A stretch of DNA of 63,866 nt, filler included. It is 8 parts of 8 records of this genome, joined end to end, with 100 filler letters (N's around TTAATTAATTAA, not from the genome) between each part and the next. Parts side by side here need not be neighbours in the genome. Positions count along the whole stretch, not along the records: positions 51,117 to 58,422 come from SRR2962707_4841; 7 more parts are not named here. One strand, written 5' to 3'. Below, one piece after another: positions 9,225 to 63,866 of this stretch (the stretch's first letter is position 1; each line of letters starts with the position of its first letter). The notes under the pieces were generated by a model. It did no database searches. It was not told the DNA's origin and worked only from the letters and a program-made list of their open reading frames with translations. The translations under genes were made by a program, and so were the position numbers.

Positions 9225-9225
9225 G

Positions 9226-35947: not shown

Positions 35948-35957
35948 TCTGGGCGCT

Positions 35958-35973: not shown

Positions 35974-36066
35974 CGCATACGCAGTTGTCAGCCCTTTCCG
36001 CCCCACTCCTAACCTTCAGTTAGCCATGCACCGCTAGCGTTGCCCTCTAGCAAGAAGGCACGGCTA

Positions 36067-37208: not shown

Positions 37209-37275
37209 TGCACTTGCACCGTCCCTGAGTGCGTGTCACAAGCCGGGCAAGATCCCTCCCTCCGGCAGATTCAGC

Positions 37276-37896: not shown

Positions 37897-37905
37897 CGAA
37901 AACGA

Positions 37906-37931
37906 AAAACCCCGGAGCGATCCGGGGTTTT
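37906..37931. terminator. Bidirectional intrinsic terminator
   Basis: AAAACCCCGGA-GCGA-TCCGGGGTTTT between convergent genes. Confidence 0.88.
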
Positions 37932-37943
37932 GTATTTATGGTT

Positions 37944-38342: not shown

Positions 38343-38387
38343 GGCGAGGGATCCTATTTGGTGCCGTACATGCGGTCGCCGGCATCG

Positions 38388-38487
38388 NNNNNNNNNNNNN
38401 NNNNNNNNNNNNNNNNNNNNNNNNNNNNNNNTTAATTAATTAANNNNNNNNNNNNNNNNNNNNNNNNNNNNNNNNNNNNNNNNNNNN
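38388..38487. other. Artificial contig linker
   Basis: N-run + TTAATTAATTAA + N-run. Confidence 0.99.
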
Positions 38488-38513: not shown

Positions 38514-38643
38514 TGTGGCGTGAGCGTCCGTGAGTGCTGCAGAGTGCTTGCCTTTGTTTTTGCTTTCATTCCCCCCCCTGCTGTCGAAGGAACCCCGCAT
38601 CTATCATCGCTTTGGATAAAGCGTAAACGCCAGGTGTCTTCGG

Positions 38644-40571
38644 ATGTTGGGTCGCTTCGCTTCGAGACTTGTGGTCAGTGTTGCCAAGGCCAATCTCACT
38701 CAGCGGCGGGCTCTGCTCAATCCTCTGCAAAGCTTGACCGCGCGCTCCCTGTCTGCACTCGACACCTGTGCAGGCGACAGAGGAGGAGGAGGAGGAGGTC
38801 GGCAGACGGACAGCTCGGTGCAAGTTGCTTCCGTGTTGGCTCACGGTCTCGGAGGCGTCCATGACGTGGGTGGCGTGGAGGAATTGTTCCTGCCTCTCGA
38901 CCTGACAGAACGCGAGTATGCGCTGTGGGAGCGAAAGTCGCACGCCTTGCTGGTGCTCCTCGTCTCGCGAAAGCTCATGACAACGGATGAGTTGCGTCGC
39001 GGCGTGGAAGCTCTCCCTGCAGCGACGTACGCGAGCTGGTCGTACTACGCGAAATGGGGCGCCTCCATGGCTTCGATATTGTTAGAACGTGGTCTCATCT
39101 CGCCCGAGGCTCTTGATGCAAATCTAGGTGAAAGGTCTGGCCCCGTTGCGTCCGCGGACGCCTCGAAGCTTCGAGGTGGAGGAGCAGAGGGTGGCCCGTG
39201 TTTCCGCAGGGGCGATGTGGTTCGAGTGAGGTGCGAAGACAACGCGTCTCGGTGGCGCAAGCCACACTTGCGGACGCCAGGGTACATCTTTGACCGCGTA
39301 GGGGTTGTTGAACGTTTTTGTGGCGAATTCGGCGACCCACAGTTTCTCGCGTTTCGTGGTGATGGGGGGAAGATGCCTTTGTATCGAGTTCGATTCCTTC
39401 AAGATGAAGTTTGGAGAGGGACTGGGCTAGACGATACGGATGGTGGTGTTGACGATGGAAGCCTGCGTGATACTGTTGACGTGGAAGTGTACGAAAGCTG
39501 GCTCAACGGACCACTGCCGGCAAGTGAGCTAGGGCAAGGCAATGCCTTAGATATTCAGCGCTTGCTGGGAATATCTCCAATTGAACCACCCTCCGAAATT
39601 CAACATGATGATCATCATGAGCATGAACACAGCCATGATCACAGTGACAGAGCGGATCATGGTCACAGTCATGGACATGGTCACAGCCACGGGCATGGAG
39701 ACCACGATCATTCGCACTTGCCACGTCCGATTGTGGAGCAAAATGCAGTGGTGAAGGAAGGTCCTGAAGACCCTGGGCAGCGAGTCGTCGAGGCGCTTGC
39801 AAAAACATTGCTGGAAGCGGGGACTTTCTCTGCAGCAGATCTCCACGAGGTCATCAACAGTGTTGACGAGCTTGGAAGTACCGCTGCAGGTCCACGTATC
39901 GTTGCAAAGGCCTGGGTTGATCCAGATTTTCGTGAATTGCTGCTCTCGGATGCACCGGTACGATTTGGAGTTCACAAACAAGCCTCTGGACCAAAGTCCC
40001 ACCTGCCTCCCCATTGTCCAGCAGCCAATGTGTCAACGATGTTGTTGTGACGAATGCGCTGAAACAGTCGGTCTCTGTGTCTGTGATGCTTAGGCTGCCT
40101 GTGCTCAATTGGGGGTTTCCTCGTCCAACACAACCACATCAACCAAGCTGACAGTCGTCGAAAACACGTCGTCCGTCCATAACGTGGTGGTTTGCACACT
40201 GTGCTCGTGCTACCCGCTCAGCATTCTTGGATTATCACCACCTTGGCAAGTGCATTGGCAGCACCTGTGAAAAGCGCAGCTTAAAGCCACGCAATATTGG
40301 TGCTGAGCCCGAATTGCCATTGTTGTCTAGGTACAAAGACCGCCGATACCGAGCACGCATTGTGCGCGAGCCGCGGCGTGTGCTCGAGGAGGAATTTGGC
40401 ACACGCATTGGACCAAGCGTTGCTGTTCGTGTGCACGACTCGACCGCGGACCTGCGGTACTTTGTGCTTCCTGCGCGGCCGAAGAACACCGATGGATGGA
40501 CGGAAGAACAGCTTCAGGCACTTGTCACCCGCGATTCGTTGATCGGTGTGTCACTTGCAAAAGAACCTTGA
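38644..40571 (+). CDS. Fused beta-alpha cobalt-type nitrile hydratase with His-rich linker, 3 exons
   Basis: Beta: [37 protein letters not shown]. Linker with 17 His. Alpha: [28 protein letters not shown] (40193-40213), [36 protein letters not shown]. Introns 39958-40093 (GT-AG) and 40246-40330 (GC-AG). Confidence 0.95.
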
Positions 40572-40723: not shown

Positions 40724-43700
40724 TCAAAGTTTTGGGAGGCTGCTCTTCCCTGGTGGCGGTGGTGGCGGCTTTTTCCTTCGCCCACGACGCTTTGCCGAAG
40801 GGGAGCCTGGGGAACCAGCGATAGGCTGGAGCGAGCCATCCCCGACCGAACCATTCTTGCGATGGCCAGGTTTCGTGCCTCCGATGGCACTTGCGGAACT
40901 TCGTTCTAATTCTAAGCTCTTGCTGTGCCGCACCGTTGGAGGCGAGGCGTCATTGTCTTCTGCCACGATGCGGGGTTTCGCTCGAGCGCCACCGCCAGGA
41001 TGCGGAGGCGGCCCCGGTGGCGGTTTAAAGCCGGGTGGTGGCGCTTTCGGACGCAGTGCTTTCAGGTTGCCAGGCAGAGAGCCGCCTGCAGCAGTACCAA
41101 CGGCGCTTCCGGTGGCACCGGCAGTTGCAGTGACATCGTCTGACCGTGGGCTCGTCGTTCCTGTCTTTCGACGGGCATTCTTTTGGCGACGCAGTTGCAA
41201 CTTTTTCAACAAGTTGAGCCGATGTCGGCTGCGCTCCTTGGCAAGGCCCTCGTCAAGTGCCTTCAGGTTGTCCTTGAAATTGGAGATGATCTTCTCTTTT
41301 TCCTTCATCGCTACATGCTGTTTCATCTCCAATTTGAGTCCTTCCTTTGCCGCAGCCTCTTTGGCCGCCTCTTTTTGCCGCTGTGCCGTCTGAAACTTCT
41401 CTTCGAGCTGCTGGAGGCGCTTTTTCATCTCCTCTTCCGTAGCTTTCATGGCTTGGATCTGCTCCTCTTTCTCTTTCACAGCTGCGGCTTCACGTGCTTG
41501 CATATCAAGCTCTTGTTGAGATTTTTGCTGCTCGAGCATGGACGCCTGCAGCGCGCGCTGCTGCTCGAGCATGGACGCTTGCTGTGCCGCCATTTGGGCC
41601 TTGACTTCGTCCATTGCAGACTTCGTGCCCTCCAATACTTCGTCGTACTTGGCTTCCATGTCCACGGCAGATGCACGGTGCTGCAGCTCTTTGGTGTGCA
41701 AATCTGAGGTCACATTGTTGAGGTTGTTGAGGTTGTTCCGCACCTGCGATACTTCGTTCCATGCTTGGCGGTCGCCCTCGTCGAGCTCAGTCCCACCTTC
41801 GCTATCAGCCCAATCACCGTGATTCGTGGAATTTCCGCCTCCGTTCGCAGCGAGCTTTTCTTGAATCTCGCGCTCGTGTTCCTCCCAAACGTCCTTGCTG
41901 GCCCATTCTGATTCCCCGGTGACAGTGTTGACGAAGAAGGGGTAGCCTGTTTCCTCGTCGATGCACTCCACCCACTCCGAACCGTGATGCCCGTGGCTGG
42001 CGGAGGACTTCGCTTCCTCGCTCCCGTCTCCTATTTGATCCGAAGATGCTGCTGAGTTCAACCGTCCCCTTGCGTTTTCAACATTGAGCAGCAGCAACTG
42101 AGACTCCGTATCCCGCACTTGTGCGGCGTAGTCTGCCGGTAGTGAACCGTAGTTGTCAGTCACGTTCGTGTCCGCTCCATACCCCATCAGCATGGCCACA
42201 AGTGCTGAGTTGCCGGTGGATGCAGCGTAGTGAAGCGAAGTACAGCCATCGTTGTCCACAGAGTCTGGATTGGCGTGGGCATCGAGCAGCATTTTCGTCA
42301 ACTGCTCAGCGTAACTCTTAGAGCGAACTGCGCAGAACAGCGCCGTACATCCATTGGTGCCGACAGCCTGCACATCAGCTCCCTGCGCAAGCAGGACCTC
42401 AACGACTGACTTGGCGCACTGGATGCACGCACTCATCAGGAGCGGCTCCGTTAGCAGGGGTGACGACATCACAGCGCTTGAAAGCTGCTGGGATAGTGGA
42501 GCAGCTTGGTTATGCTGTTTCCGCGACAAATAGACCTCGATCAGGACGGTGAGCCGGCGGCGAAGGAAGGAGATGAGTCTTGGCTCATTCAGATGCTCCG
42601 CGTAACGTGCACAGTAATCGTCGGCCAATGCACCCCCTTTTGTGTGATTGTACAGGGTGTAGAGTGTGCAGATGTTCATCAGCAGCACCAAGAATTGCAG
42701 ATTCATTTCCAATAGCTCAGAGGCAGTGAACGGCTCGGGTGTCTCCACGAAGAGTACATGACTGTCCTCTGATTTGAAGCCTGAAGCTGGGGAGGACGAA
42801 TCTGTGAGCTCGCCAAAATCAGGGGTCCATGGGTTTTCGATCGCCGCTATGAAACTCTGATCCATGCAGAACTGAAAGGCCTTCTGTGCAGTGTTCTGCG
42901 CTTTTTCCCACTCGCACATCGCCATGTACAGGGTGAGGCTGCTATTGAGAGCGGTCAAGTACGCGGAACGAAGATTGCTATAGGACTTGCAGATAGTGGT
43001 GTGCCCTTCCACGAGCTTGACTGCTTCCTTCCCACGGTTGTCCGCATACAGCATGTGTGCCACTACTTCGACGTGGGCAGCGCGTGCCACCCAGCGCTTG
43101 GCCACAGTCTTGACGTTGTCGAACTTCTGCTTCGACACGAAGTCGTGGACCACTTTGCGGGCTTTCTTGCATCGCTTCAACAAGGACTCGGAGGACTCTG
43201 ACGCTGGGGCCAGTCCGCAGAGAATGCAGCTGCGGGCGTCGTGGGCGTTGACTGAGTTGCAATACAAGCATTTCCATTTTTCTGCGTGCTGGTTACTGCC
43301 CTGTGCATTGGCAGCATTGGGTGGCTGAGCCATGATCGCGTCTAAAAAGCGCTCGCTGGGACGTCTCAACAGCTTGGTTGTTTTGAGCTTTCGCAGCTTG
43401 CGGCTTTTGTGCTTCTTTTTGTCGCTGCGATGTTTTCCGTGCTTCCGGCTCCGGGCGCCTCGTCCATCACCATCATCGCCTCCAGCGCCTGCTTGCTCCT
43501 GTTCTTCACCGAGCGCTTCTTCCTCCATCTCCTGGTTTCGCTCGGCCATGTACTTGCCAAACTCCTCCACGTACGCAACCAGCAGCATCAAGTTCTTTGT
43601 TTGCGCGGTGATGTACAGTTGCCTCTCCAAGTCCTCATCCGCGAGCACCTCGTTGGACAACGCCAGAAACTCGGTAAACACTGCCGCGCCCTGAGGGCTG

Positions 43701-44005
43701 TAGTGCTCCACAGTCCCGTTGATCTGGTCACGGCAGAAGTCCTTGAACTTGTTCCAGATCTCTGTTTGTCCTTCAGAGAAAGTCTGCTGCTCCGGGTCGT
43801 CAAACACCGCGCAGTTGGAGTTCACGAACATGGCGAACACGGTCTTCCACTCATCCCCCTGCATGTACGCGTTGAGGTCCTTGAGCAGAATTTCTTTTTG
43901 CTGGATCGTCCAGGTGGAGGTGTCGAAATCGTCCTCGTGGCCTTCCTCCACCCAGTCCTCGGCATTCCATGGGTCGTCCTCGTGCGAGCCCCAGTCCACC
44001 GACAT
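40724..44005 (-). CDS. Intronless multidomain protein: BART-like, RanBP2-type Zn finger, helical region, ankyrin repeats, WW, coiled coil, Pro-rich tail
   Basis: 3.28-kb open frame from ATG 44005; W..FVNSNCAVFD..IWNKF, WKCLYCNSVN..SCILCG, GCTALFCA/GCTSLHYAA, EWVECIDEETGYPFFVNTVTGESEW. Confidence 0.8.
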   Translation of the reverse strand: MSVDWGSHEDDPWNAEDWVEEGHEDDFDTSTWTIQQKEILLKDLNAYMQGDEWKTVFAMFVNSNCAVFDDPEQQTFSEGQTEIWNKFKDFCRDQINGTVEHYSPQGAAVFTEFLALSNEVLADEDLERQLYITAQTKNLMLLVAYVEEFGKYMAERNQEMEEEALGEEQEQAGAGGDDGDGRGARSRKHGKHRSDKKKHKSRKLRKLKTTKLLRRPSERFLDAIMAQPPNAANAQGSNQHAEKWKCLYCNSVNAHDARSCILCGLAPASESSESLLKRCKKARKVVHDFVSKQKFDNVKTVAKRWVARAAHVEVVAHMLYADNRGKEAVKLVEGHTTICKSYSNLRSAYLTALNSSLTLYMAMCEWEKAQNTAQKAFQFCMDQSFIAAIENPWTPDFGELTDSSSPASGFKSEDSHVLFVETPEPFTASELLEMNLQFLVLLMNICTLYTLYNHTKGGALADDYCARYAEHLNEPRLISFLRRRLTVLIEVYLSRKQHNQAAPLSQQLSSAVMSSPLLTEPLLMSACIQCAKSVVEVLLAQGADVQAVGTNGCTALFCAVRSKSYAEQLTKMLLDAHANPDSVDNDGCTSLHYAASTGNSALVAMLMGYGADTNVTDNYGSLPADYAAQVRDTESQLLLLNVENARGRLNSAASSDQIGDGSEEAKSSASHGHHGSEWVECIDEETGYPFFVNTVTGESEWASKDVWEEHEREIQEKLAANGGGNSTNHGDWADSEGGTELDEGDRQAWNEVSQVRNNLNNLNNVTSDLHTKELQHRASAVDMEAKYDEVLEGTKSAMDEVKAQMAAQQASMLEQQRALQASMLEQQKSQQELDMQAREAAAVKEKEEQIQAMKATEEEMKKRLQQLEEKFQTAQRQKEAAKEAAAKEGLKLEMKQHVAMKEKEKIISNFKDNLKALDEGLAKERSRHRLNLLKKLQLRRQKNARRKTGTTSPRSDDVTATAGATGSAVGTAAGGSLPGNLKALRPKAPPPGFKPPPGPPPHPGGGARAKPRIVAEDNDASPPTVRHSKSLELERSSASAIGGTKPGHRKNGSVGDGSLQPIAGSPGSPSAKRRGRRKKPPPPPPGKSSLPKL

Positions 44006-44274
44006 GCTTGCGGCGGCTGCTGCTGCTGTGGCTGTGGCTGCAGCTGCAGCTACACGTGCAGCAGGCAGCGCCAATGAAGGCAACAGAAGCTTTCAGCAGC
44101 CTATGTCACCATCCCCATCACAACGGAGCGTCGTCGCCGAAAGAACGCCTCTTCCCTCGGTGACACGCACTACGCAAGCAGCACAAAAAAACGGAAAGAA
44201 AGACCGAAAGAAAGTGGAGAAACAACGGACACCTTGAGCAAGGGTTTCCCAAGTTTTTTCCCCTTCGTTTTTTT

Positions 44275-44319: not shown

Positions 44320-44419
44320 NNNNNNNNNNNNNNNNNNNNNNNNNNNNNNNNNNNNNNNNNNNNTTAATTAATTAANNNNNNNNNNNNNNNNNNNNNNNNN
44401 NNNNNNNNNNNNNNNNNNN
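44320..44419. other. Artificial contig linker
   Basis: N-run + TTAATTAATTAA + N-run. Confidence 0.99.
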
Positions 44420-51016: not shown

Positions 51017-51116
51017 NNNNNNNNNNNNNNNNNNNNNNNNNNNNNNNNNNNNNNNNNNNNTTAATTAATTAANNNNNNNNNNNNNNNNNNNNNNNNNNNN
51101 NNNNNNNNNNNNNNNN
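51017..51116. other. Artificial contig linker
   Basis: N-run + TTAATTAATTAA + N-run. Confidence 0.99.
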
Positions 51117-51145
51117 AAGTGTGAGTGTGAATTGTGTGAGTGAGT

Positions 51146-52016
51146 ATGCCCGCTGCCCCTCCGCAAACGCGATCGAGAAGCTGAGCGTGATTCTGTGTTT
51201 GCAAGTTCAAGTGTTTCACGAATCGCATTGTGTGCTGCGTAACCTCCAAAGGCTACACTTAAACCTTCGATCCAGCTTGTTCTGGATAAAAGCCTCGTCC
51301 GCGTGGCTAGTACTTCTTTCTTACACCGCATTTATGGTCCTACTCGCGTACAACTGGACTGTGTACCTATCCGCATACTTGCAGGGAGTGTAAGTTCTGA
51401 ACTGTTCATTGGGGTTCTTGCCAAGACGTGATGTCGGCGCTCACCCTCTAGAAATCGGTGGCCACAGCGCAGCCCTGTTTTTGAACCTACAAATTCTGAC
51501 GTAGCTGTGTTGCGCTGCAGGTGGTTGCAGGGCGTCTTGCTTTGCTGGGTCGCGCAGATCATATTGCTCCCGATCCTGCGCACTGCAAGTCTCTTTCTTT
51601 GTTCAGGCTTCGTCCCAGCTTTCCTGTGCACTGTGGCTTGCTGTGCCGCCAGTGTGGCGTTTGTGGCGTGCCCACCTTCTTTAGCCTTGATTTTGCCGTA
51701 TTTTGGCCTGGTACGTGTGGGAACTTTCAAATGCGTGAATGACAGCGTACGTCTCGGCACTTCAGCACACGTCTCGACCATTTGCTTACTTGCATGTTAC
51801 ATTGGTTCGTGCGTTTATGGATGGCAGGGTATGATGGATTGGGAGCCGATATGTACAGATTTGCCTTTGCAATTGTGGGACTTCCAAACATACCCAGCCA
51901 TGGAAGTCCATGGCATTCACAGCAACGCCACAGACAAGGCTGCCCCTTTGCTGTTGGATGAAATTTTCGGGTGGCATCTCTCGTCGTGGCCCGTGCTGGG
52001 TACCGACGCGCCTTGA
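51146..52016 (+). CDS. Hypothetical multi-pass membrane protein, probably one intron near 51388-51520; start uncertain
   Basis: Two open hydrophobic frames (51121-51393, 51507-52016) followed by an AT-rich 3' region. Confidence 0.45.
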
Positions 52017-52272
52017 TGCGTTTAACTCAACAATCGTGATGGTCGTCACTTTTTAAAACAGCACATTATTTATTCTATAGTTGCAAGGTTCAAGTTGTTA
52101 TTAAAAATGTAAAGATAGAGCCTGGTCCGCAGAATCATGAAAGCACCCACAGTTCAACCACACACAGCGTGTGCTTCCATCAACCAAGACGCATGACATG
52201 AAGCTTTGAAAAAGCGCTCATGAAACACCTCTGCCCAGAGGAAAACCAGGCTTCGCGTCGTGAAACGTCATG

Positions 52273-55200
52273 TCACTTTTTCTTGCCAGAACCCCAACTA
52301 AACGGATTGAAAAGCGAGAACTTCTTTTTCTTTTTCTCACCTGGCGCAACAGAACAACAAAAAATACGGATCAAACTCTCAGAAACACGAGAATGTCGTT
52401 TGCCCAGATCTCCGACCGCAACCACGCCACTGAGCCATGGACAAATAATTTGACACACAAACCTTCAACTCCAATTGCAGCATCGCTGTCGCCTTGCCGA
52501 CGCCCGGGGGCTGCCTCGGCACTTGCCGAGACCGCGTTCCCACCGCCACCAATAATTGTCCTACCTTTTCCGATAGCTTGTCCACCCCGAGACCTAGGAG
52601 GCGACGCCGTTTTCGGCCGCCCAATGACAGTTGTTTTTTTCTTTATCGGTGTGGCTGTCCTTGGCCGGCCGATCACCTTGGAGCGACTCCCACCGCCACC
52701 AGCCGTTGGTGTCGTTGGAGCCGAAGTTTGAACATCATCGTCGTCTTCCTCCTTTCGGTCCCCTGCGTCAGACCCGACTCCCAAACGTCCGGTTTTGCGA
52801 AGCTTGTTGCCCCTTAAAGTCGGTCCGACAGGCAGCCAGCAAAAATAAAACGGTGGGAACCAACCAATGCAGCGAAAAGTCTTTCATGAGGCACAGGCAC
52901 ATACAACAGCATCTGTCGTACCAGGTTGGAGGAGCAGCTTGGTCATTATTTGGAGAAAAATGATTCTTCTCGAGGTCCCCAATGCCGCCGCTGCCAACAA
53001 GAGGTCGTCAAATCAGCAAGTCACTAACAATCTGCACAGCATTGGCACGGAAACGACCTTGTGGCTGCAAGAAACGCTGATTCGCTAAAAAAACATGAAT
53101 GCTTATACAGACCCGCGTGTTTTCTTCAATTGAAATTTAATGGTGCCACCTTGCTCTGCCCCGTCAGATCCTCTGGGGCCTGGCTGTGTGCCCGTGCGAC
53201 GTAGCATACTACGACCAAACGCTGGGGCATCAACACTGCTTGAATCCGGGCCTGGTCGTTTCTTTGACTTTCGCAGCATGTCGCGTCCAAACGGTACGCT
53301 TGCACTCTCACCGTCTTCTTCCACGCTACCATCCCGACGGCCAGTCTTCCGCAGCATGCCGGGACCAAAAGCTGGCTCGCTGAAGATAGTGAAATTTGTA
53401 CGGTGCAACACGCCAGTGAAGAACCGATTGACCCAATAAGTGCAGACGAACAGCAGCACTTTCTACGGCCAAACGTGGCTCATTTCACACACTGCAGGCA
53501 TTACAAGTACGAACCCAGCGTTCTTTGCGCCACCGGCTCCATTCGCGCCAGACTTTCGCAAGACTACTTGTCCAAACGCAGGTTTGCTACCAGTACTTCC
53601 AACCTACAATTAAAAAGTATTCAGACACCTGAATGCGCGTCCACAGAAACTTTCCCAAGGTACTGCACCCAGGCACAGCACGAGTCCACGCGTGCACGCA
53701 TACGCGCACCTTATCGCTGGGTCTGCGACGAACACCCTTACGTAGAACGCCAGGGCCGATTGGTCCATCGCCACCGCCAGCCTTCAACTTCGCCTGAAGA
53801 GAAAAGTGACCAGACATGTAAAGACCCCGTCATCTTGTTTTGGCAGCTCAACATCAAAAGCACACACCTTCATTGCCTCAAGATGCTTCGGGTCGATTTT
53901 GCGCGAGGCCCGGGCAGCCTATGCAAAGCCGAAACGATGCAAAGCAAGCAGATTAATAACACTAGAACTGCTAACACCATTTGGAGCGCAGATAGAGGGC
54001 CTTAAGACAAACCGCTGCCGCCGCCTTTTTTTTCTCAGCTTCTGCTTTCTGCCGTTCCATCTCCATTTCAGTTCGAACCACGCTCACATCGGTGCAAAAG
54101 TCATTAACAAATCCGAATAGCTGCAAGGGACCCCAGGCACAAATAGTTCATTGAATCAAAACAACATGCTTTGCACCAGGCACTGAACACACAGTGGAAC
54201 ACAGTGGAACACGAAGTGTGGTGCTTACCTGCATGTTGTCAGGCGGAGTCTTTTTGTGTTCACCGAACATTTGCAATAGACTTTTGAAGTCGTTGTCGAC
54301 GGTCTCAATTAACTTGCTGACACGGGCAATGGCCTGAACGCACCAACAACGCTCAAACGCTCAAAATAGCGCCAGTGTACGCCCAAGGCAGCCATCAAAC
54401 GAACAAGAACAGTCCACGAACCCCACTCTGCTGTTTCAGAAAAGGCTGCATCACAGCTTTAAACCGGTCTCCAGGAATTCGTTGTTCCTCCGCGCATTCC
54501 TGCAACGCATTTCACAACGGACAGCCGAACGATTTGTGAAATTGTGCAGCATGCGCAAAATATGCTATCGAAAGGAAACGCGCAGCAATGTACCGTCTCC
54601 AGCAGCTTCAAACCTTTCCGCATAGTCTTGCAGTCCATGAAGCACTGATCAAGACTGATCGTGCGTGCCTGCATGAATACGAACAAAACAACCATAAGCA
54701 GCGATGCTACATAGATTGGTGTTGACGAAATGCCTTTTAGGCGAAGATGCGACACGACGCGGCCAGGTGTTATTGAACCTACCTCGGCGAGTGAGGGAAC
54801 CTCTTTCGCAAAATCATCCGGAAACGACCCCCCATGCTTGCGCATGAGTTCTTCCACAATGTACCTGCACCGAGAGCACAGCGCCGTTATCAGGTTTAAC
54901 GATGTTCGCAGCCCCGGAAGCAGAGAAAGCGGACAATGGGCAGGAGTGTGGTTCGAAAACTTGACAAGGCGGACCTAAGAAGGTTTGTGGAGCGATCGGT
55001 GGACCGATGGCCATGAATAGTAGGTAGAGCTTTCAACTTGAAGCCAGCAGCATTGGCCTGAAGGTCAGCAAGAAAGTGTGGCAAAAAAAGCAGTGACGAA
55101 CGCGGTGACAGCGACAAGTCGTAGTCAATTATCAACGATAGTGTCAATAACAGGATTGCTTAGCAGTCTGAACGACAGCGCGAGACCCAAAAAACATACC

Positions 55201-58200
55201 CTCGATTCCGTCTCATGGTTCAAAAAATTGCCGCACGCCAACACCATTTCCAGCAACGCCTTTAGCTTCTTTGAACTCCGGATCTGCACCATGCAACAAA
55301 ATGCAAAGCTCCTTGAACAAAACCAGTTCCTCGGCTATCAACAAGCATGGATGGTTGCATGATTCTCATAATACCTCACGAATCGCATTGGCGATAAGTT
55401 TTGCCGAGTTAGCCACAACTTCGAGAGAGGTCTGCCACAACAACAAGCGTAATCATGTGTCTTTTTGATGGCAAAGCAGAATAATTCATTGCAGGTCAAG
55501 GCCAGTCGTGTCAATGCTTCCCAAAAACGAGCAAAACGCACCGGAAGATTGCTTTTAAAAAGCATGCAATCAAGTCGTGTGCGCAAGCGCGGAATCTTCA
55601 GCATTTCGAGCATAAATTGCTCAACCTTTCATGCAATTAGAGACAAAGGCAGAGTCAACACTCTGTGCGCACCGCGCAACCACACACACACACACATGCT
55701 GAAGACCAGCTTTTACGACGAACATGATTCAACCGATTCTTCTGGCTCGGTGGGATCTCAGCGAGCGCCTGTTGGCAGGGGAGAGAGCCAAGACATTCGA
55801 ACAGAGCGTATGAAGTTGCATGTAATGTAGGAACACGGCGTCACGACACTGGTTGACAAGATGTTGTTCGCACCTTAGCCTCCTCAAAATCGGCCAAGCA
55901 ATTTCCATAAACGATGTTGCTAACAAGCTGCGGCGTCACAATGTTTTCGTCCATGCTCACCATGGCCGCGCGAAGCGTCGAAAAATTATGCTGCACATGC
56001 ACAATACCACAAACATCAAGTAAGCTGCGCCGTTCCTGCATGCCAGGTTCCACTAATAAAGAGAAATAACACAGTTTCAGAAAATAAAGAAGCAAACGAA
56101 GAGCTCACCTTGAGCTTTGATAACGCAATGCCAATCTTGTGAACGCGCCCAGAGTCGACGATGTTAGCTTTCTCCACTTTGTCGCTCTTCCCGCCTGCTT
56201 TTCCGCCCTTTCCGCCCTTTCCTGGCCCATGCATTCCCATGCCAGGTCTTCCTCTTAAAATTGCGAAAGTGCCTCACTGTCCTTCTTTTTTCGAAATTGA
56301 CAAACATCAGAAACAACAGGTGCAAGTCCGACTGCGCACCTTTGTCGTCTTTTTTCGCTTGTGTTTTCGCAAACAAACTGGCGAGCTCTTTCGTCTGGGC
56401 GCAACCCATTACAACGACACGCCAAGAGCACATGCACATACTTAGGCGTCATTGTGCCATGCAAACACCGCAATCATCGCAATCAAACAAGGCGTTCGAT
56501 CTGATGGTAATTGTTGGTCTCTAAAGCGCCAATGAGCAACCAACGTGCTTACCTTAACCGCCGGTTTGTGTAGCTTGACCCACACTGTGCCTTCGACGTC
56601 ATCTTTTTTCAGTTTTTCCCAGAAAATCTAGTTTCAGGAGCGGCCAACAGCAGCAAGCAGTATGGGCTACCTGTGCATTCTGTCCGCAAAACAACGTGCA
56701 ATCCATCCACCTGAACAAATCGTGCTGACAGTGTACAACATCCAGCTTTACCTGCCGCAGCGTGTTCGGCTTTGCTTTCTTCTTTTTTTTGGCAAGCTTT
56801 TTAATGTTGTTGGCAGTCTGCGACAAGTAAAAAGTGCACCTCAAGGAGTCAAAGACAGTGGCAAGCTCGTGCGCAAATTCAAAGCAACAGCAACCAACGC
56901 AAGAACTCGATAGCACTGCACGCACCTTGACTGTCAAGGCCATTGGCGGGGGTGGAGGACCAGGCGGACCTCCCATTCTGAAACACGTGTATAAATTCAC
57001 AAACGAAGATTAGCTGCGCATATCCCGACAAGTCACACATCGTCTAATGCTACCCCGCAGCTCGAAGAGCCAGGCATGCACCAATTTGTCAACCGACGTA
57101 CCCGCCCATGGGTGGCGGAGGTGGAACCGATCCTCCTGGTGCCATGCCTACAAGCCGAGAGATATTGACGTCACATCGGTGCATGTAAAGACTCAGTGGT
57201 GCGCGTGATACACTGTCAGACCGGTGAGAATGATTTCGAGTGAAAAACGTTTCTGTGCAGAGGAACGTACCTGGCGGAGGGGGAATACCAGCACCCATGC
57301 CTGGTGGCGGTGGAATTCCCGCGCCCATTCCAGGTGGAGGGGGAATACCCCCGCCCATTCCAGGTGGAGGGGGAATGCCCCCGCCCATTCCAGGCGGTGG
57401 AGGGATTCCTGGGCCTCCCATGCCTGGTGGCGGCGGGATCCCCTGGCCCCCCATTCCTGGTGGCGGCGGGATGCCGGCACCACCAACGCCAGGCGGGGGT
57501 GGAGTACCCTGGCCTCCACCAGTTCCTGGAGGAGATGGGACGGCACCCGAAGCGCCAGGATGCACCGCAGCAACCATGCCCCCAGCGGAGGGAGCTGAGC
57601 CAGGCACCTGCGGTGCACCTCCGGCAACCATTGAAGCACTCGGTCCATCATGCTCAAGATCCTTCAGCACCTGTTGAACTCGTTCTTTCTCAAGCTCGAA
57701 TGCCTCGGGACCAAACTCTGTCAAAAGCCTTGACCGGAGGGGTACGTACGTCATTTTGCTTCCACTCAACATGCTGGCCTCGGCGATGTCGTATGCCCGC
57801 CGTGCAACCCGTCCGCCACAATTGGCAGGCCCGATGAGGAACTAAACACGAAGTATCGCATTCAAAACCCAGATGAACATCACGTCGCTTCATGACTTGC
57901 CATGAAAATCGAAAAAAAAATAGTAAACAGCGCCACACAGCAGACGACCTCGACAAATTCGTCTGAGCGTCGTGATGGAGCATAGGCCAGAAGCTTCTTG
58001 AGATATTTTTCTGCAAGGATCGGAGTCCGTCCATGCGGCAACAACACAACCAAGTGAGGTGAGTGTTGTGATTTTAAACCACGCGCGGGGCATGCACTTT
58101 GCGCAGTAGCGTGAGTGCATACGCTACACCGCGATGACCGGTCGCAGCTACTCACCAAGTTTTCTCTGGCGCTTCCTGAGAAAAGGCATTTCCAGCGATC

Positions 58201-58390
58201 TCCTGAAAATGACACCAGCATTCGATGAATCGACAAGGTGCAATTATGCACACCAGCACAGAAGCACTCGTCCAGGCGAAACTGTTACCACGACGCACCC
58301 GAATGTCTTCTTGGGCAGGTTGGGCAGGTTTTTGTAGTTCTTTGCCAGGCGGTTCGACAGCAAACGGAAGTCGTTGAATCGATGCTTGAC
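52273..58390 (-). CDS. Formin with PX domain, FH1, FH2 and LRKT-repeat tail; 5' end missing; about 28 exons
   Basis: [40 protein letters not shown]1: (GIPPPPGMG)n. FH2: [52 protein letters not shown]; stop at 52273. Confidence 0.9.
57270..57530 (-). repeat. FH1 coding tandem repeat, about 30-33 bp period (GIPPPPGMG[GA])
   Basis: cccattccaggtggagggggaat units. Confidence 0.9.
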
Positions 58391-58422
58391 CTAACAGCAA
58401 AAGCCAAAAAAAAAAAAAAAAA

Positions 58423-58522
58423 NNNNNNNNNNNNNNNNNNNNNNNNNNNNNNNNNNNNNNNNNNNNTTAATTAATTAANNNNNNNNNNNNNNNNNNNNNN
58501 NNNNNNNNNNNNNNNNNNNNNN
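58423..58522. other. Artificial contig linker
   Basis: N-run + TTAATTAATTAA + N-run. Confidence 0.99.
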
Positions 58523-58954
58523 CGCAAGATCATCGTCGACACCTATGGCGGCTGGGCGCCTCACGGCGGTGGCGCCTTCTCCGGCAAGGACCCGACGAAG
58601 GTTGACCGTTCGGCGGCTTATGCGTCGCGCTACCTCGCGAAAAACGTTGTCGCAGCAGGCCTTTCCGAGCGTTGCACCATCCAGCTCGCCTATGCGATCG
58701 GCGTCTCGAAGCCGCTGTCGATCTATTGCGATCTGCACGGCACCGGCAAGGTCGAGGAAGAAGCGATCGAGAAGGCCGTTGCGAAGTGCATGGACCTTTC
58801 CCCGCGTGGCATCCGCGAGCATCTCGGCCTCAACAAGCCGATTTATGAGCGCACCGCCGCCTATGGCCACTTCGGACGCCAGCCGGATTCCGATGGCGGT
58901 TTCTCCTGGGAGAAGACCGACATCGCCGACAAGATCGCGGCTGAAATTCGCTAA
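58523..58954 (+). CDS. metK: S-adenosylmethionine synthetase, 3' part
   Basis: [46 protein letters not shown]; frame absent from the ORF track. Confidence 0.97.
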
Positions 58955-58970
58955 AGATCACGGTGCCCGT

Positions 58971-59717
58971 GTGAGCGGCGAACGCGACAATTCTCGCCGT
59001 CACGTCTACGGCCGCATCAAGGGCAAGGCCTTGCGGTCGCGCCAGGCGAATTTGATGGAGACCCTCTTCCCGAGGGTCTCCATTTCTCTTGGAACCGGCT
59101 CCACGAGCGAAGGTCCTCTCGATCCGCACACACTTTTCGGCGATGCCGATGATATCTGGCTCGAGATCGGTTTCGGCGGCGGTGAACATCTCGTCCATCA
59201 GGCGGAAACTCATCCGCGTGTGGGTATTATGGGCTGTGAGCCCTTCGTGAACGGCGTTGCGAAGCTCGTCGCCGAGATCGATGCGCGCGCCCTCTCCAAT
59301 GTGCGCATCCTGAACGACGATGCGCGCTTCCTGCTGGAGCGCCTCGCGCCTGCCTCGCTCGCGCGCGTCTTCATTCTCTATCCCGATCCCTGGCCGAAAA
59401 AGCGCCACAACAAGCGCCGCTTCGTCAATCAGGAGACACTCGGCTTTCTGGCGTCCGCGCTGAAGCCCGGCGGCGAACTCCGCTTCGCCAGCGACATTCC
59501 CGACTATGTTGCCTGGACGCTCGCTCATATCACCCGCTTCAACCGTGAGCAGGGCGAGACATTCATTTGGGGCGCTGAAGGCGCGTCTGGCTGGCGCACA
59601 CCCTATGAGGACTGGCCGGGCACGCGCTATGAGGCAAAGGCGATCCGCGAAGGCCGCACACCTGCCTATCTCAGCTTTCGCAGGGCTTGCCCTGAGCCCC
59701 AAAAAAGCGCTATATAA
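58971..59717 (+). CDS. trmB: tRNA (guanine-N7)-methyltransferase
   Basis: LEIGFGGGEH, GCEPF, YPDPWPKKRHNKRR, TRYEAKA; GTG start. Confidence 0.95.
   Translation: MSGERDNSRRHVYGRIKGKALRSRQANLMETLFPRVSISLGTGSTSEGPLDPHTLFGDADDIWLEIGFGGGEHLVHQAETHPRVGIMGCEPFVNGVAKLVAEIDARALSNVRILNDDARFLLERLAPASLARVFILYPDPWPKKRHNKRRFVNQETLGFLASALKPGGELRFASDIPDYVAWTLAHITRFNREQGETFIWGAEGASGWRTPYEDWPGTRYEAKAIREGRTPAYLSFRRACPEPQKSAI
59687..59716 (+). promoter_or_regulatory. Probable sigma70 promoter of the rimP operon inside the trmB 3' end
   Basis: TTGCCC-N18-TATATA. Confidence 0.5.
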
Positions 59718-59743
59718 GCGCCAACAAGTCAGCGACGCTCTAG

Positions 59744-59782
59744 AGAGTGGGCTGTCTCCGGAAACGGGGGCCCGCTTTTTTT
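59744..59782 (+). terminator. rimP leader hairpin/attenuator
   Basis: AGAGTGGGC...CTCCG-GAAA-CGGGG-GCCCGC followed by T7, directly upstream of rimP. Confidence 0.75.
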
Positions 59783-59824
59783 GTTATCTGGGGCCCGGGC
59801 TGACGACAATTTGGAGAGTGGCCA

Positions 59825-60448
59825 TTGGCCTCCACGGGTCTCGACAGGAAGACGGACGGCGAAGCAGCGGATCTCGCGCTGCTGGATACGCATCTGGTCG
59901 CGCCTGCCGGTGTCGCGCGCAAGGTGTTCGAGCTGCTGCGCGGTCCCGCCGAAGGCATCGGCTTCGAGATCGTGCGCATTCGGTTTGGCCTTCAGGACGG
60001 TCAGACATTGCAGATCATGGCCGAGCGCGCCGATGGCACCATGTCGGTCGAGAATTGCGAAGAGCTCTCGCGCACCCTCTCTGCGGTGCTCGATGTCGAG
60101 GACCCGATCCCCGGCGAATACAATCTCGAAGTCTCCTCGGCGGGCATCGACCGTCCGCTGACGCGTCCGAAGGATTTCGAACGCTGGCAGGGTTTCGAGG
60201 CAAAGATCGAACTCACCGAAGCGGTCGGCGGACGCAAGCGGTTCCGCGGCCTGCTTCAGGGCGTTGAGGACGGCGAGATCCTCGTCGAAAGCGACGTTGA
60301 AGGTTTTTCGGAGCCGCAGGTTCTCGGCCTGCCGTTCCAGAAGTTGAGCGAGGCGAAGCTCATGATGAGCGACGACCTCATTAGGGAAAGTCTCAAAAGA
60401 CAGGGCCGGGCGGCGAACGATCCCGACGCCCCCGCCGACGGAGAATAA
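59825..60448 (+). CDS. rimP: Ribosome maturation factor RimP (start uncertain)
   Basis: TLQIMAER, LDVEDPI..YNLEVSSAGIDRPL, GRKRFRG. Confidence 0.95.
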   Translation: MASTGLDRKTDGEAADLALLDTHLVAPAGVARKVFELLRGPAEGIGFEIVRIRFGLQDGQTLQIMAERADGTMSVENCEELSRTLSAVLDVEDPIPGEYNLEVSSAGIDRPLTRPKDFERWQGFEAKIELTEAVGGRKRFRGLLQGVEDGEILVESDVEGFSEPQVLGLPFQKLSEAKLMMSDDLIRESLKRQGRAANDPDAPADGE

Positions 60449-60451
60449 AGA

Positions 60452-62074
60452 ATGGCACCGGCAGTAAGCGCGAACCGGCTTGAACTGTTGCAGATCGCAG
60501 ACGCAGTCGCGCGCGAGAAGTCGATCGACCGCGAGGTCGTGATCGAGGCGATGGCCGAGGCGATCCAGAAGGCCGCGCGGTCCCGCTACGGCGCGGAAAA
60601 CGAAATTCGCGCGCGCATCAATGCGACCACCGGCGAAATTCGTCTCGTGCGCCTTCTCGAGGTTGTGGACGCGGTCGACAACGACGCCGTGCAGATTGAC
60701 GTGAAGTCGGCGCAGCGCCGCAACCCCGCCGCTCAGCTCGGCGACCTCATCGAGGACGAACTGCCGCCGGTCGATTTCGGCCGCATCGCCGCACAGACCG
60801 CGAAGCAGGTCATCGTGCAGAAGGTGCGCGATGCCGAGCGCGAGCGTCAGTACGACGAATACAAGGACCGCATCGGCGAAATCGTCAACGGCATCGTCAA
60901 GCGCGTTGAATACGGCAACGTCATCGTCGATCTCGGCCGCGGCGAAGCCATCGTGCGCCGCGACGAGCTTCTCCCGCGCGAAACCTTTCGCAACGGCGAT
61001 CGCATTCGCGCCTATATTTACGACGTCCGCCGCGAGCAGCGCGGCCCGCAGATTTTTCTCTCGCGCTCGCATCCCCAGTTCATGGCGAAGCTCTTCGCGC
61101 AGGAAGTACCGGAAATCTACGACGGCATCATCGAGATCAAGGCCGTCGCCCGTGATCCCGGCAGCCGCGCCAAGATTGCCGTGCTCTCCAACGACAGCTC
61201 CATTGATCCCGTCGGCGCCTGCGTCGGCATGAGGGGGTCGCGCGTGCAGGCCGTCGTCAACGAACTGCAGGGCGAGAAGATCGACATCATCCAGTGGTCG
61301 CCCGACGCCGCCACCTTCATCGTGAACGGGCTCGCGCCGGCGGAAGTCGTCAAGGTGGTGCTCGACGAAGATACGCAGCGTATTGAAGTCGTGGTTCCCG
61401 ATGACCAGCTGTCTCTTGCGATCGGCCGCCGCGGACAGAACGTGCGCCTCGCCTCGCAGCTGACCGGCTGGGACATCGACATCCTGACCGAAGCCGAAGA
61501 GAGCGAGCGCCGCCAGGCCGAGTTCCTGAGCCGCACCGCCACCTTCGCCGAGGCGCTCGATGTCGACGAGATGATCGCCCAGCTCCTCGCCTCCGAAGGC
61601 TTCTCCTCGATCGAGGAAGTGGCTTATGTCGATCTCGACGAAATCGCCGACATCGAAGGCTTCGACGAGGACACGGCACAGGAAATCCAGAGCCGCGCCC
61701 TCGAATATATCGAGCGCCAGAATGCCGAATTCGATGCGAAACGCCGTGAGCTTGGCGTCGCCGACGAAGTGGGCGACGTCGAAGGCGTCACGCCGAAAAT
61801 GCTGGTTGCCTTTGGCGAGAACGACGTCAAGAGCGTCGAGGACCTCGCGGGCTGCGCCACCGACGATCTCGTCGGCTGGAACGAGACTGTGAACGGTGAG
61901 CGCAAGCATCAGCAGGGCATCCTCGAAAGCTTCGATATCTCGGCCGATGAGGCGAACGACCTGATCATGAAGGCGCGCCTCAAGGCCGGCTGGATCACCG
62001 AGGCCGATCTCGCGCCTGCGGAAGAAGAAGGCGAAGAAGCAGAAGGCGCGGACGAGGTTGGCGAAGAAGCCTGA
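60452..62074 (+). CDS. nusA: Transcription termination/antitermination factor NusA
   Basis: [47 protein letters not shown], acidic C-terminal repeats. Confidence 0.98.
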
Positions 62075-62702
62075 CGCAGAGCGGGACGGGCCGGAACGCC
62101 GCTGCATCGTTTCCGGTGAAAGCGGCGGCAAGGACGGGCTGATCCGCTTCGTGCTGGATCCCGAGGACCGCGTTGTGCCGGACCTCGCCGAAAAGCTGCC
62201 CGGTCGTGGCCTTTGGGTCACGGCGGTCCGCGAAACGGTTGAAAAGGCGGCCCTGAAGGGTCATTTCGCAAAGGCTGCCAAGGCCCCAGCGAAAGCCGAC
62301 CCGGAGCTTGCGGACCTCGTCGAGCGTCTGCTCGCCCGCCGTGCCGCCGATGCGCTTGGCCTTGCCCGCAAGGCCGGAGCCCTTGAAACGGGCTTCGAAA
62401 AGGTCCTGACGGCCATCGGAAGAGGGCGGATCGCCGCTCTCATCGAGGCGCGTGACGGCGCCGAGGATGGCCGCCGCAAGCTCGAACAGCGCCTCAGGGT
62501 GATGAAAGAGCAAGGAATTCTGGGCGATGTGCCCGTTCTCGACCCCCTTTGGGCGGACGAAATGGGTTTGGCATTGGGCCGCGGAAATGTGATACATGCA
62601 GCCCTGATCCCGGGGCGCATGCAGGCGAAAGTCGTGGCGGAGCTGGCCAGGCTCGCGCGTTATGGGCGGAAACCCCGCCCGGAAGATGCCGCTGCCGTGT
62701 GA
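62058..62702 (+). CDS. YlxR/DUF448 RNA-binding protein fused to an L7Ae-like domain
   Basis: PERRCIV, LIRFV, LPGRGLW, LGLARKAG, ALGRGNVIHAAL; TTG start. Confidence 0.9.
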   Translation: MAKKPDAERDGPERRCIVSGESGGKDGLIRFVLDPEDRVVPDLAEKLPGRGLWVTAVRETVEKAALKGHFAKAAKAPAKADPELADLVERLLARRAADALGLARKAGALETGFEKVLTAIGRGRIAALIEARDGAEDGRRKLEQRLRVMKEQGILGDVPVLDPLWADEMGLALGRGNVIHAALIPGRMQAKVVAELARLARYGRKPRPEDAAAV

Positions 62703-62731
62703 GTGCGCGGGAAAGTTGACGAAGGATACGA

Positions 62732-63866
62732 ATGACCGATCAGGCCGATACGAGCGAACGCAAACCGAAAGCCGCGGGCGGGAAAACCCTCAGCCTCAAG
62801 CGGACGGTGGAATCTGGCCATGTGCGCCAGAACTTTTCGCATGGGCGCTCGAAATCGGTCGTGGTCGAAAAGAAGAAGAAGCGGACGCTGAAGACCGGTG
62901 GTGAGGCAGCCCCTGCCGCGCCCGCCGAGGAAAAGCCGAAACCGGCCGCCAAGGCAGCGCCTGCCCCCGCGCCCGAGCCGAAGGCCGAGGCGGCGCCTGC
63001 CCCCGCGCCTGCCCCCGAGAAAAAATCACAGAGCCGCTCCCGCTCCGGCGTCGTGCTGCGCACGCTGACCGAAGAGGAAAAGAATGCCCGCGCCCAGGCG
63101 CTCGACAGCGCGCGCGAGCGCGAAGGCGAGGACCGGCGCAAGGCCGAGGAAGAAGCAAAGCGCTTTGCCGAGGAAGACGAGCGCCGCGAGCAGGAGCGCG
63201 CCGCCGCCGCCGCGCGCGCGGCGGAGGAAGCAGCGCGTCTTGCCGCCGAGCAGGAAGCACGCAATCGCTCTGCTGACGATTCACGGCATCGCGAAGACGA
63301 CCGCCCGCCCGCGCCTGCCCGTCCCAGCGGCAAGGAGCTGACCGCCGAGGAGGTCGAAGACGACGAAAAGCCGAAGCGCAGTGCCGGTCATGCTGCGCCG
63401 AAGCAGCCGCCCGCCCGCCGCGTTGAAGAACGCCGCCGCGGCAAGCTCACCATTACCAAGGCCTTCGACGACGATAGCGGCCGCCAGCGTTCGCTCGCTT
63501 CCATGCGCCGCCGCGTCGAGCGCGAGCGCAAGAAGCACATGGGTGTGCAGGATGCGCCGCAAAAGGTTATCCGCGACGTCGTCATTCCTGAAGTCATCAC
63601 CATCCAGGAACTCGCGAACCGCATGGCGGAGCGCGCGGTGGATGTCATGAAGATCCTGATGAAGCAGGGCATCATGCTGCAGATCAACGATGTGATCGAC
63701 AGCGACACCGCCCAGCTCGTCGCCGAGGAACTCGGCCACACCGTGAAGCGCGTAGCGGAATCGGACGTGGAAGAAGGTCTTGTCGGCGAAGACGATGCCG
63801 CCGAGCAGAAAAAGCCGCGCGCACCCGTCGTTACCGTCATGGGCCATGTCGACCACGGCAAGACCT
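62732..63866 (+). CDS. infB: Translation initiation factor IF-2, 5' part
   Basis: [46 protein letters not shown] at window end. Confidence 0.97.

What the first reader, a model, noticed from the sequence alone, without database searches (positions are those of the whole stretch)
57830..58390. PX domain fused N-terminal to a formin FH1-FH2 core
Seen: four small exons invisible in the ORF track splice in frame to [69 protein letters not shown], which runs into the FH1 exon. Known: this matches the PX pattern (R[FY].DF..L, P.LP.K, R...LE.YL, FL); well-described formin targeting domains are GBD/FH3, PTEN, C2, PH, PDZ and RhoGAP. Inference: a phosphoinositide-targeted formin acting on endosomes or phagosomes; I do not know of a characterised PX-formin.
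Basis: partly seen in the sequence, partly recalled or inferred. Interest (0 to 1): 0.72.

Follow-up and report, generated by a model that had tools for sequence, protein, structure and literature searches.

The report
Formin with a PX lipid-binding head
An unidentified intron-rich eukaryote has a real, transcribed gene that joins a membrane-lipid-binding PX domain to an actin-filament-building formin, a pairing I could not find described in print.

Summary
On the minus strand of contig 51117-58422, three small exons plus the start of the 571-nt FH1 exon splice in frame through GT..AG introns.

- **PX:** Exon 1 alone (31 aa) reaches the Pfam PX cut-off (21.7 vs 21.6 bits, E 3.1e-4).
- **FH2:** Four later exons hit Pfam FH2 in profile order.
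- **Transcript:** An independent run of the same organism holds one 8060-nt intron-less contig. Its coordinates and cover fit my 28-exon model in 27 of 27 bins. PX, FH1 and FH2 are therefore on one transcript, open for 1024 codons.
- **Missing start:** The contig end cuts the gene's 5' end, so the first part of the PX domain (about 613 nt of transcript) is unseen.
- **Other domains:** There is no room for a GBD/FH3 region.
- **Prior description:** Eight literature searches and two formin surveys gave no PX-formin.
- **Not done:** I could not query InterPro or submit the spliced protein. Exon-level searches found no relatives.

Verdict: a real PX-FH1-FH2 formin and a new variant of lipid-targeted formins. 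Targeting to PI3P membranes is inferred, not shown.

The parts
58299..58390 (-). PX exon 1 (30 codons + 2 nt). It carries the R-F-x-x-F and P-x-x-P-x-K motifs. An AG acceptor sits at 58392-58391.
   Evidence: Pfam PX E 3.1e-4, 21.7 bits, profile 11-41/84. X2 cover of bin 58193-58422 is 103.0 nt against 102 in the model.
58391..58422 (-). 3' end of the upstream intron (T-rich tract, AG), cut by the contig end. The upstream PX exon(s) are missing from the window.
   Evidence: Sequence. Exon 1 begins at position 614 of the X2 contig by arithmetic, so about 613 nt of transcript lie beyond the contig end.
58156..58202 (-). PX exon 2 (47 nt). It carries the start of the R-x-x-x-L-x-x-Y-L helix.
   Evidence: GT..AG borders and frame. 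X2 cover fits. No Pfam hit alone, too short.
57949..58010 (-). PX exon 3 (62 nt). It carries the rest of the last PX helix region.
   Evidence: GT..AG borders and frame. X2 cover of bin 57949-58192 is 99.1 nt against 99 in the model.
57271..57841 (-). Exon 4. It holds the last two PX residues, a linker of about 110 aa, and 8 of the 10 FH1 polyproline tracts.
   Evidence: X2 contig piece 57270-57841 equals its positions 815-1386. Polyproline tracts listed. No GBD/FH3 or other Pfam hit.
56926..57147 (-). Exons 5 and 6 (57147-57102 and 56977-56926), holding the last two FH1 polyproline tracts.
54013..56817 (-). FH2 domain, exons 7-21.
   Evidence: Pfam FH2 hits in profile order: exon 8 at 15-35 (E 0.16); exon 13 at 147-172 (8e-6, 25.7 bits); exon 15 at 193-218 (6.9e-6, 25.9 bits); exon 16 at 221-246 (0.0078, 15.8 bits). 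X2 joints and contig numbering.
52273..53918 (-). C-terminal tail, exons 22-28, Gly/Lys/Arg-rich. It has six copies of a short F-G-x-x-[ML]-L-R-K-like motif. The TGA stop is at 52275-52273.
   Evidence: No Pfam family in the two large tail exons searched, of seven.
51827..52272 (-). 3' UTR. It overlaps the 3' end of a convergent plus-strand transcript.
   Evidence: The X2 contig runs on, and the joint at 51709-51827 has GT..AG on the plus strand.

Best explanation
This is a genuine, expressed gene of an unidentified intron-rich eukaryote. It encodes a formin whose head is a PX domain instead of the usual Rho-GTPase-binding GBD/FH3 region. The order is PX, a linker of about 110 aa, FH1 with 10 polyproline tracts, FH2, and a basic repeat-bearing tail of about 330 aa.

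Shown: the exon structure, the single spliced transcript, the PX and FH2 HMM matches, and the lack of room for GBD/FH3.

Inferred: the PX domain binds a 3-phosphoinositide, most likely PtdIns3P, because the residues that contact it in solved PX domains are in place. That would dock the FH2 dimer on endosomal, phagosomal or macropinosomal membranes. There FH1 would recruit profilin-actin and FH2 would nucleate and elongate filaments directly on the organelle. Recruitment would then depend on lipid, not on a Rho GTPase.
For: - **Exon structure.** Exons 1-3 and exon 4 join in frame through GT..AG introns. The ORF stays open for 1024 codons over 28 exons.
- **Independent transcript evidence.** Run X2 comes from the same coded organism but a different sample and study, and its RNA label is the tool's guess. 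It holds an 8060-nt contig laid on the minus strand, with the 13 displayed joints in the formin gene all CT..AC on the plus strand.
- **Fit of the model to that contig.** My model reproduces the contig's own numbering at 55990=1793, 53379=2935 and 52340=3621. It reproduces the cover in 27 of 27 bins, including the two bins that hold the PX exons. Only two X2 records were laid, and the other covers only 51117-51256. The PX-exon cover therefore comes from the same contig as FH1-FH2.
- **Sequence identity.** X2 shows no differing letters from the window.
- **PX.** Pfam PF00787 on exon 1 alone gives 21.7 bits against a cut-off of 21.6, E 3.1e-4.
- **FH2.** Four exons hit PF02181 in profile order at 11.5, 25.7, 25.9 and 15.8 bits.
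- **No GBD/FH3.** No Pfam hit on the 190-aa exon 4. At most about 204 codons lie upstream, and part of those must complete PX.
- **Lipid-contact residues, read from the sequence.** The Arg and aromatic of R-F-x-x-F, the Lys of P-x-x-P-x-K and the first Arg of R-x-x-x-L-x-x-Y-L are all present. Their roles are recalled from the p40phox and SNX3 structures, not taken from a call.
Against: - The PX HMM evidence rests on one 31-aa exon that only just meets the cut-off. It drops to 20.6 bits when intron residues are appended.
- Exons 2 and 3 give no hit alone.
- The spliced protein could not be scored.
- The N-terminal beta-sheet part of PX is off the contig, so completeness of the domain is unproven.
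- The 14 joints between 55199 and 58390 were not displayed. For them I rely on arithmetic and cover, not on listed joints.
- X2 is labelled RNA only as a guess.
- No relatives were found by any search, so conservation of the architecture is untested.
- Lipid binding, localisation and actin assembly are all untested.
- The conserved FH2 Lys that I recall as actin-contacting appears as Arg.
Confidence: 0.8

Rival explanations
1. The gene is real, but the PX module is degenerate or repurposed. It would bind another lipid or a protein partner, or act as an autoinhibitory or dimerisation element, so the formin is not PtdIns3P- or endosome-targeted.
For: The HMM score is borderline. The N-terminal part of the domain is unseen. 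PX domains with other lipid preferences or protein partners exist (recalled). The tail has six basic repeats that could themselves bind acidic membranes or actin.
Against: The residues recalled as PtdIns3P contacts are all present in the sequence.
Confidence: 0.14
2. PX and formin are two neighbouring same-strand genes. They would be joined only by read-through transcription or by a chimeric k-mer assembly of run X2.
For: Logan contigs can merge transcripts. The same 8060-nt contig does merge the formin 3' UTR with a convergent plus-strand gene. The exon 3-exon 4 joint itself was among the 14 rows not displayed.
Against: The junctions fall exactly on GT..AG sites and keep one frame with no stop. 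Cover of the PX exons is at the same depth, with the introns uncovered. Exon 3 ends only 107 nt upstream of exon 4. Exon 4 begins with the last PX residues and has no separate start context.
Confidence: 0.03
3. The PX resemblance is chance similarity in a short basic helical segment of an otherwise ordinary formin N-terminus.
For: E 3.1e-4 on one 31-aa piece is not overwhelming once the roughly thousands of ORF pieces in a 64-kb window are considered. phmmer of exon 1 against PDB sequences found no PX chain.
Against: The hit meets Pfam's curated cut-off. The following two exons carry on the PX consensus in the right order and spacing, by direct reading against a recalled consensus.
Confidence: 0.03

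Closest known systems
Plant class II / PTEN-formins (for example Physcomitrella For2A)
   Same: A lipid-recognising domain sits directly N-terminal of FH1-FH2 and replaces GBD/FH3. For2A's PTEN domain binds PtdIns(3,5)P2 (Cvrckova 2013, PMC3817587, passage seen).
   Different: The head here is a PX fold, not PTEN-C2. The predicted ligand is PtdIns3P. No PTEN hit was found.
PH-domain formins (holozoan PHCF: PH-PH-FH1-FH2-PH; single PH-formins of stramenopiles and apusozoans)
   Same: A phosphoinositide-type module is fused to FH1-FH2 without G/DID/DD (Pruyne 2017, PMC5628938, passages; Grunt 2008, PMC2386819).
   Different: The module here is PX rather than PH. There is no C-terminal PH. The tail instead carries six short basic repeats.
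Diaphanous-related formins acting on endosomes (RhoD/RhoB-bound Dia formins)
   Same: A formin working on endosomal membranes, which is the proposed role.
   Different: Those are recruited through GBD/FH3 and a Rho GTPase. The 2013 review states that all endosome-associated formins described until then carry GBD/FH3 (PMC3817587). This protein has no room for GBD/FH3.
PX-bearing cytoskeletal motors (kinesin KIF16B, recalled; Leishmania myosin LdMyo13 with a PX region, PMC12472444, passage)
   Same: A PX domain is used to aim a cytoskeletal machine at a lipid-defined membrane.
   Different: Those are motors that move on existing filaments or microtubules. This is a filament nucleator and elongator.

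Membership tests
PX domain (Pfam PF00787) | Profile-HMM match at or above the curated cut-off | tested here: met
   Exon 1 alone scores 21.7 bits against 21.6, E 3.1e-4, profile 11-41/84. This is borderline: 20.6 bits with 17 intron residues appended. The spliced domain could not be scored.
PX domain (Pfam PF00787) | Complete fold: N-terminal three-stranded sheet plus helical subdomain | not testable with these tools
   Profile positions 1-10 and the preceding strands lie beyond the contig end at 58422. About 613 nt of transcript are unseen.
PX domain (Pfam PF00787) | Conserved 3-phosphoinositide contact residues (Arg-aromatic, Lys after the Pro-rich loop, Arg of the last helix) | tested here: met
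   All are present in the translated exons 1-3. Their assignment as contacts is recalled from solved PX structures, not from a call.
PX domain (Pfam PF00787) | Phosphoinositide binding | not testable with these tools
   Needs a lipid-binding assay.
Formin (FH2, Pfam PF02181) | FH2 profile match | tested here: met
   4 of 11 FH2-region exons searched hit PF02181, in collinear profile order (15-35, 147-172, 193-218, 221-246), at 11.5, 25.7, 25.9 and 15.8 bits. Each is below the 34.8-bit cut-off alone, and a simple sum is 78.9. The read-through ORF of exon 13 scores 29.8 bits.
Formin (FH2, Pfam PF02181) | FH1 polyproline tracts immediately N-terminal of FH2 | tested here: met
   10 tracts of 4-5 prolines at model residues 181-286. 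FH2 starts near residue 313.
Formin (FH2, Pfam PF02181) | Conserved actin-contacting Ile (knob) and Lys (post) | tested here: inconclusive
   By eye, the Ile is present in exon 10 and the Lys position reads Arg in exon 16. The alignment and residue roles are recalled and were not computed.
Diaphanous-related formins | N-terminal GBD/FH3 (G-DID-DD) | tested here: not met
   No Pfam hit in exon 4. At most about 204 codons lie upstream, and part of them is needed for PX.
Diaphanous-related formins | C-terminal DAD | tested here: inconclusive
   No Pfam family in the 2 of 7 tail exons searched. DAD is a short motif.
PTEN-formins (plant class II type) | PTEN-like phosphatase + C2 domain before FH1 | tested here: not met
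   No such hit on exons 1, 3 or 4. The region before FH1 is PX plus a linker of about 110 aa.

The most novel reading that the evidence does not exclude
This is the first transcript-backed member of an undescribed class of formins, PX-formins. They would be recruited straight to PtdIns3P membranes without a Rho GTPase. That would give some protists a formin-based route to endosomal or phagosomal actin, alongside or instead of the Arp2/3-WASH route. The class may be confined to a poorly sampled lineage, since no exon-level search found a relative.
Probability: 0.3. Interest if true: 0.6.

Novelty: new variant of a known kind. Interest (0 to 1): 0.42.

Why it matters
Formins are aimed at their sites of action by their N-terminal regions. 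The described aiming devices are Rho-binding GBD/FH3, PTEN, PH, C2, PDZ, RhoGAP-like domains and transmembrane segments (Grunt 2008).

A PX head would add the classic endosome and phagosome lipid reader to that list. It would also give a simple system, regulated by one lipid, for studying actin assembly on organelles. It extends the pattern in which PX domains are attached to cytoskeletal machines.

The gain is moderate. Domain shuffling in protist formins is already known to be extensive, and the function here is only inferred.

Tried and rejected
- **Whole-genome search.** No genome is held for this window.
- **Relatives by protein search.** The linker, the PX exon-1 ORF and the FH2 exon-15 ORF found none among longer proteins. 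Exhaustive phmmer with the 96-aa ORF holding FH2 exon 13 gave 0 hits at E<=0.001. The queries were short single exons, so this is weak evidence of anything.
- **Metagenome scans for the missing 5' exons.** tblastn-confirmed patterns from the linker gave none. A degenerate pattern for exon 1 gave none.
- **ESM Atlas.** No usable hit with exon 4.
- **PDB sequence search.** phmmer with exon 1 found no PX chain.
- **Source of PX sequences for my own profile.** The control genomes of the genome search are prokaryotic and nothing rang.
- **Automatic exon-chain searches.** The exons were then curated by hand against the X2 numbering and cover.
- **RNA runs.** No RNA holder is listed as such. X2's RNA label is a guess.
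- **Earlier scan notes.** None bear on this.
- **Papers.** Chalkia 2008 is not held. Grunt 2008's Additional file 4, the detailed domain table, is a PDF and could not be read. It may list single-instance domains.
- **Upstream exons in the window.** No other contig end carries the matching poly(A/T) run.

Full report
**What the window is.** The 63,866-base window is not one molecule. It is eight contigs joined by N44-TTAATTAATTAA-N44 linkers. The finding lies on the seventh contig, 51117-58422 (7,306 bases, GC 0.51). No whole genome is held for the window. The last contig (58523-63866) is bacterial: its NusA is 90-95% identical to Parvibaculum genomes. The source is therefore a eukaryote assembly or mixed culture that includes bacterial contigs.

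**Checking the observation.**
- 58390-58299
- 58202-58156
- 58010-57949
- the first codons of 57841-57271

The introns are 96, 145 and 107 nt, all GT..AG, and the phases join in frame. So there are three small exons and the start of the large FH1 exon, not four small exons.

Exon 1 is preceded by a T-rich tract and an AG. The contig stops 32 bases further on, in a homopolymer run, so the gene's 5' end is cut off by the assembly.

**Is it PX?**
- Exon 1 alone (31 aa) hits Pfam PX (PF00787) at E 3.1e-4 and 21.7 bits. The curated cut-off is 21.6 bits, and the match covers profile positions 11-41 of 84.
- With 17 intron-encoded residues appended the score is 20.6 bits.
- Exons 2 and 3 (15 and 20 aa) give no hit on their own, as expected at that length.
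- phmmer of exon 1 against PDB sequences finds no PX chain.
- By direct reading, the next exons carry the Arg-x3-Leu-x2-Tyr-Leu helix and the closing Phe-Leu in the expected order and spacing. The three positions I recall as PtdIns3P contacts in p40phox and SNX3 are occupied: the Arg-aromatic pair, the Lys after the Pro-rich loop, and the Arg of the last helix.
- The N-terminal strands of the domain are not in the window.

**The rest of the gene.** I first tried automatic exon chaining, which failed on time or memory. I then curated the exons by hand and with the joints reported by read laying.

The model has 28 exons and 27 introns. All introns are GT..AG, 74-158 nt long, with a mean of 113 nt. 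The frame is open for 1024 codons up to a TGA at 52275-52273. The layout is:
- residues 1-69: the visible part of PX
- a linker of about 110 aa
- residues 181-286: ten polyproline tracts (FH1)
- from about residue 313: FH2
- a Gly/Lys/Arg-rich tail of about 330 aa with six copies of a short F-G-x-x-[ML]-L-R-K-like motif

Four FH2 exons hit Pfam FH2 in profile order:

| Exon | Profile positions | E-value | Bits |
|---|---|---|---|
| 8 | 15-35 | 0.16 | 11.5 |
| 13 | 147-172 | 8e-6 | 25.7 |
| 15 | 193-218 | 6.9e-6 | 25.9 |
| 16 | 221-246 | 0.0078 | 15.8 |

The other seven FH2-region exons searched gave no FH2 hit. Exon 4 (190 aa) has no Pfam family.

**One transcript?** The look-up of sequencing runs listed these holders:
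- X1: probably the source DNA
- X2: same coded organism, another sample and study, labelled 'RNA?' as a guess, holding 0.33 of the words
- X3 and X4: small-share holders

Laid on the contig, X2 gives only two records. One is a 289-nt piece at 51117-51256. The other is an 8060-nt contig on the minus strand that skips the introns. Fifteen joints were displayed. Thirteen of them lie in the formin gene and all are CT..AC on the plus strand, which is GT..AG for this gene. Fourteen more joints were not shown.

The displayed pieces give three anchors in the contig's own numbering: 57841=815, 55990=1793 and 53379=2935. My exon lengths reproduce all three exactly.

The per-bin X2 depth, divided by the contig's depth of 109.6, gives the number of covered bases per bin. 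The model matches within about 1 nt in 27 of 27 bins. That includes the two bins that hold the PX exons: 99.1 against 99, and 103.0 against 102.

Since no other X2 record lies there, the PX exons, FH1 and FH2 are on the same intron-less contig. An intron-less copy at 100% identity is best explained as spliced RNA. By the same arithmetic exon 1 starts at contig position 614, so about 613 nt of transcript lie upstream. That is enough to complete PX, but far too little for a GBD/FH3 region as well.

X1's own contigs differ from the window by four single-base deletions, at 54026, 54828, 56783 and 57447. X2 agrees with the window at all four, which supports the open frame.

Caveat: the same X2 contig runs past the formin's 3' UTR into a convergent plus-strand gene (joint 51709-51827 has GT..AG on the plus strand). 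Such contigs can therefore merge overlapping transcripts. At the PX end, however, the joins are exact splice junctions in one frame.

**Search for relatives and for the missing 5' end.** All of the following were null:
- The word-indexed protein search with the linker, the exon-1 ORF and an FH2 exon ORF, looking at longer proteins.
- The exhaustive phmmer search with the ORF holding FH2 exon 13, which gave 0 hits at E<=0.001.
- Two metagenome scans.
- The protein atlas.
- The scan's own notes.

These queries were single short exons, so the blanks say little. I cannot tell whether the architecture is conserved.

X4, a marine metagenome, holds three pieces of 233-244 nt that are 95-99% alike at depth 2-2.7. 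A close relative therefore occurs in a marine sample.

**Literature.**
- Eight full-text searches found no PX-formin.
- Grunt 2008 (PMC2386819; passages and Table 1 seen) lists GBD/FH3, DAD, PH, C2, PDZ, PTEN, transmembrane, ARM, ANK, WW and RhoGAP, but not PX. Its detailed supplementary table is a PDF that I could not read.
- Pruyne 2017 (PMC5628938; passages seen) has no occurrence of 'Phox', 'PX domain' or 'sorting nexin'.
- Cvrckova 2013 (PMC3817587; passages seen) states that all endosome-associated formins described until then carry GBD/FH3, and that the PTEN domain of moss For2A binds PtdIns(3,5)P2.
- Chalkia 2008 is not held.
- I could not query InterPro. Automated annotation of protist genomes may well already list PX+FH2 proteins.

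**How it most likely works.**
- Shown: gene structure, transcript, domain order, and absence of GBD/FH3.
- Inferred: PX docks the protein on PtdIns3P-rich membranes (endosomes, phagosomes, macropinosomes). The FH2 dimer nucleates and caps growing barbed ends there while FH1 feeds in profilin-actin. Regulation is by lipid availability rather than by Rho-driven release of autoinhibition.
- Open: the basic tail repeats may bind actin monomers or acidic lipids.
- Rivals: a repurposed or degenerate PX (0.14), two genes merged by read-through or assembly (0.03), and chance PX similarity (0.03).

**Verdict.** This is a new variant of a known kind (lipid-targeted, non-Drf formins), of moderate interest.

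Noticed in passing
window 1-63866 (linkers at 13740-13839, 22041-22140, 29854-29953, 38388-38487, 44320-44419, 51017-51116, 58423-58522): The window is eight separate contigs joined by N44-TTAATTAATTAA-N44 linkers. Most contigs end in simple repeats. Features must not be read across these joins.
   Followed up: yes
window 58523-63866: A bacterial contig at GC 0.64. By my reading of the sequence it carries the end of metK, then trmB, rimP, nusA, a small ORF and infB; only nusA was searched. Its NusA is 90-95% identical to Parvibaculum genomes. Contigs 1-13739 (SMC-type ORF) and 29954-38387 (secretin ORF) also look bacterial. The assembly is therefore mixed.
   Followed up: partly
window 38620-40050 (+): One 476-aa ORF carries nitrile hydratase beta (N and C parts) followed by the alpha chain. 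The nearest Atlas cluster has the same fusion and is 92% eukaryotic. This is the fused eukaryote-type nitrile hydratase.
   Followed up: partly
window 55482-55541 (-), intron after FH2 exon 13: Read through in frame, the first 20 codons of this intron extend the Pfam FH2 match from profile 172 to 193 (29.8 bits against 25.7 for the exon alone). That profile stretch is the one I assign, by eye and not from a Pfam hit, to the true next exon (55431-55375). The transcript skips these codons. They may be a relic of an exon duplication, or chance.
   Followed up: no
window 52463-53793 (-), tail exons: The formin tail has six copies of a short F-G-x-x-[ML]-L-R-K-[ST/G]-like motif and two V-I-G-R-P-x-T-A repeats. 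No Pfam family, including WH2, hits the two large tail exons. They could be actin-monomer or lipid-binding motifs, or kinase sites.
   Followed up: partly
window 51117-51827 (+): A convergent plus-strand gene sits here. The X2 contig continues from the formin 3' UTR into exons joined by a plus-strand GT..AG intron (51709-51827). It has a loose end at 51252 that leads off the contig. The two genes' 3' ends overlap.
   Followed up: no
window 54026, 54828, 56783, 57447: X1 (the probable source DNA run, Logan contigs) lacks one base at each of these four exon positions. The window and the X2 transcript contig agree with each other there. These are probably errors in X1's contigs, not in the window.
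   Followed up: partly
window 40724-44092 (-): A 1122-aa uninterrupted ORF with an ARL2-binding BART domain, ankyrin repeats and a WW domain.
   Followed up: no
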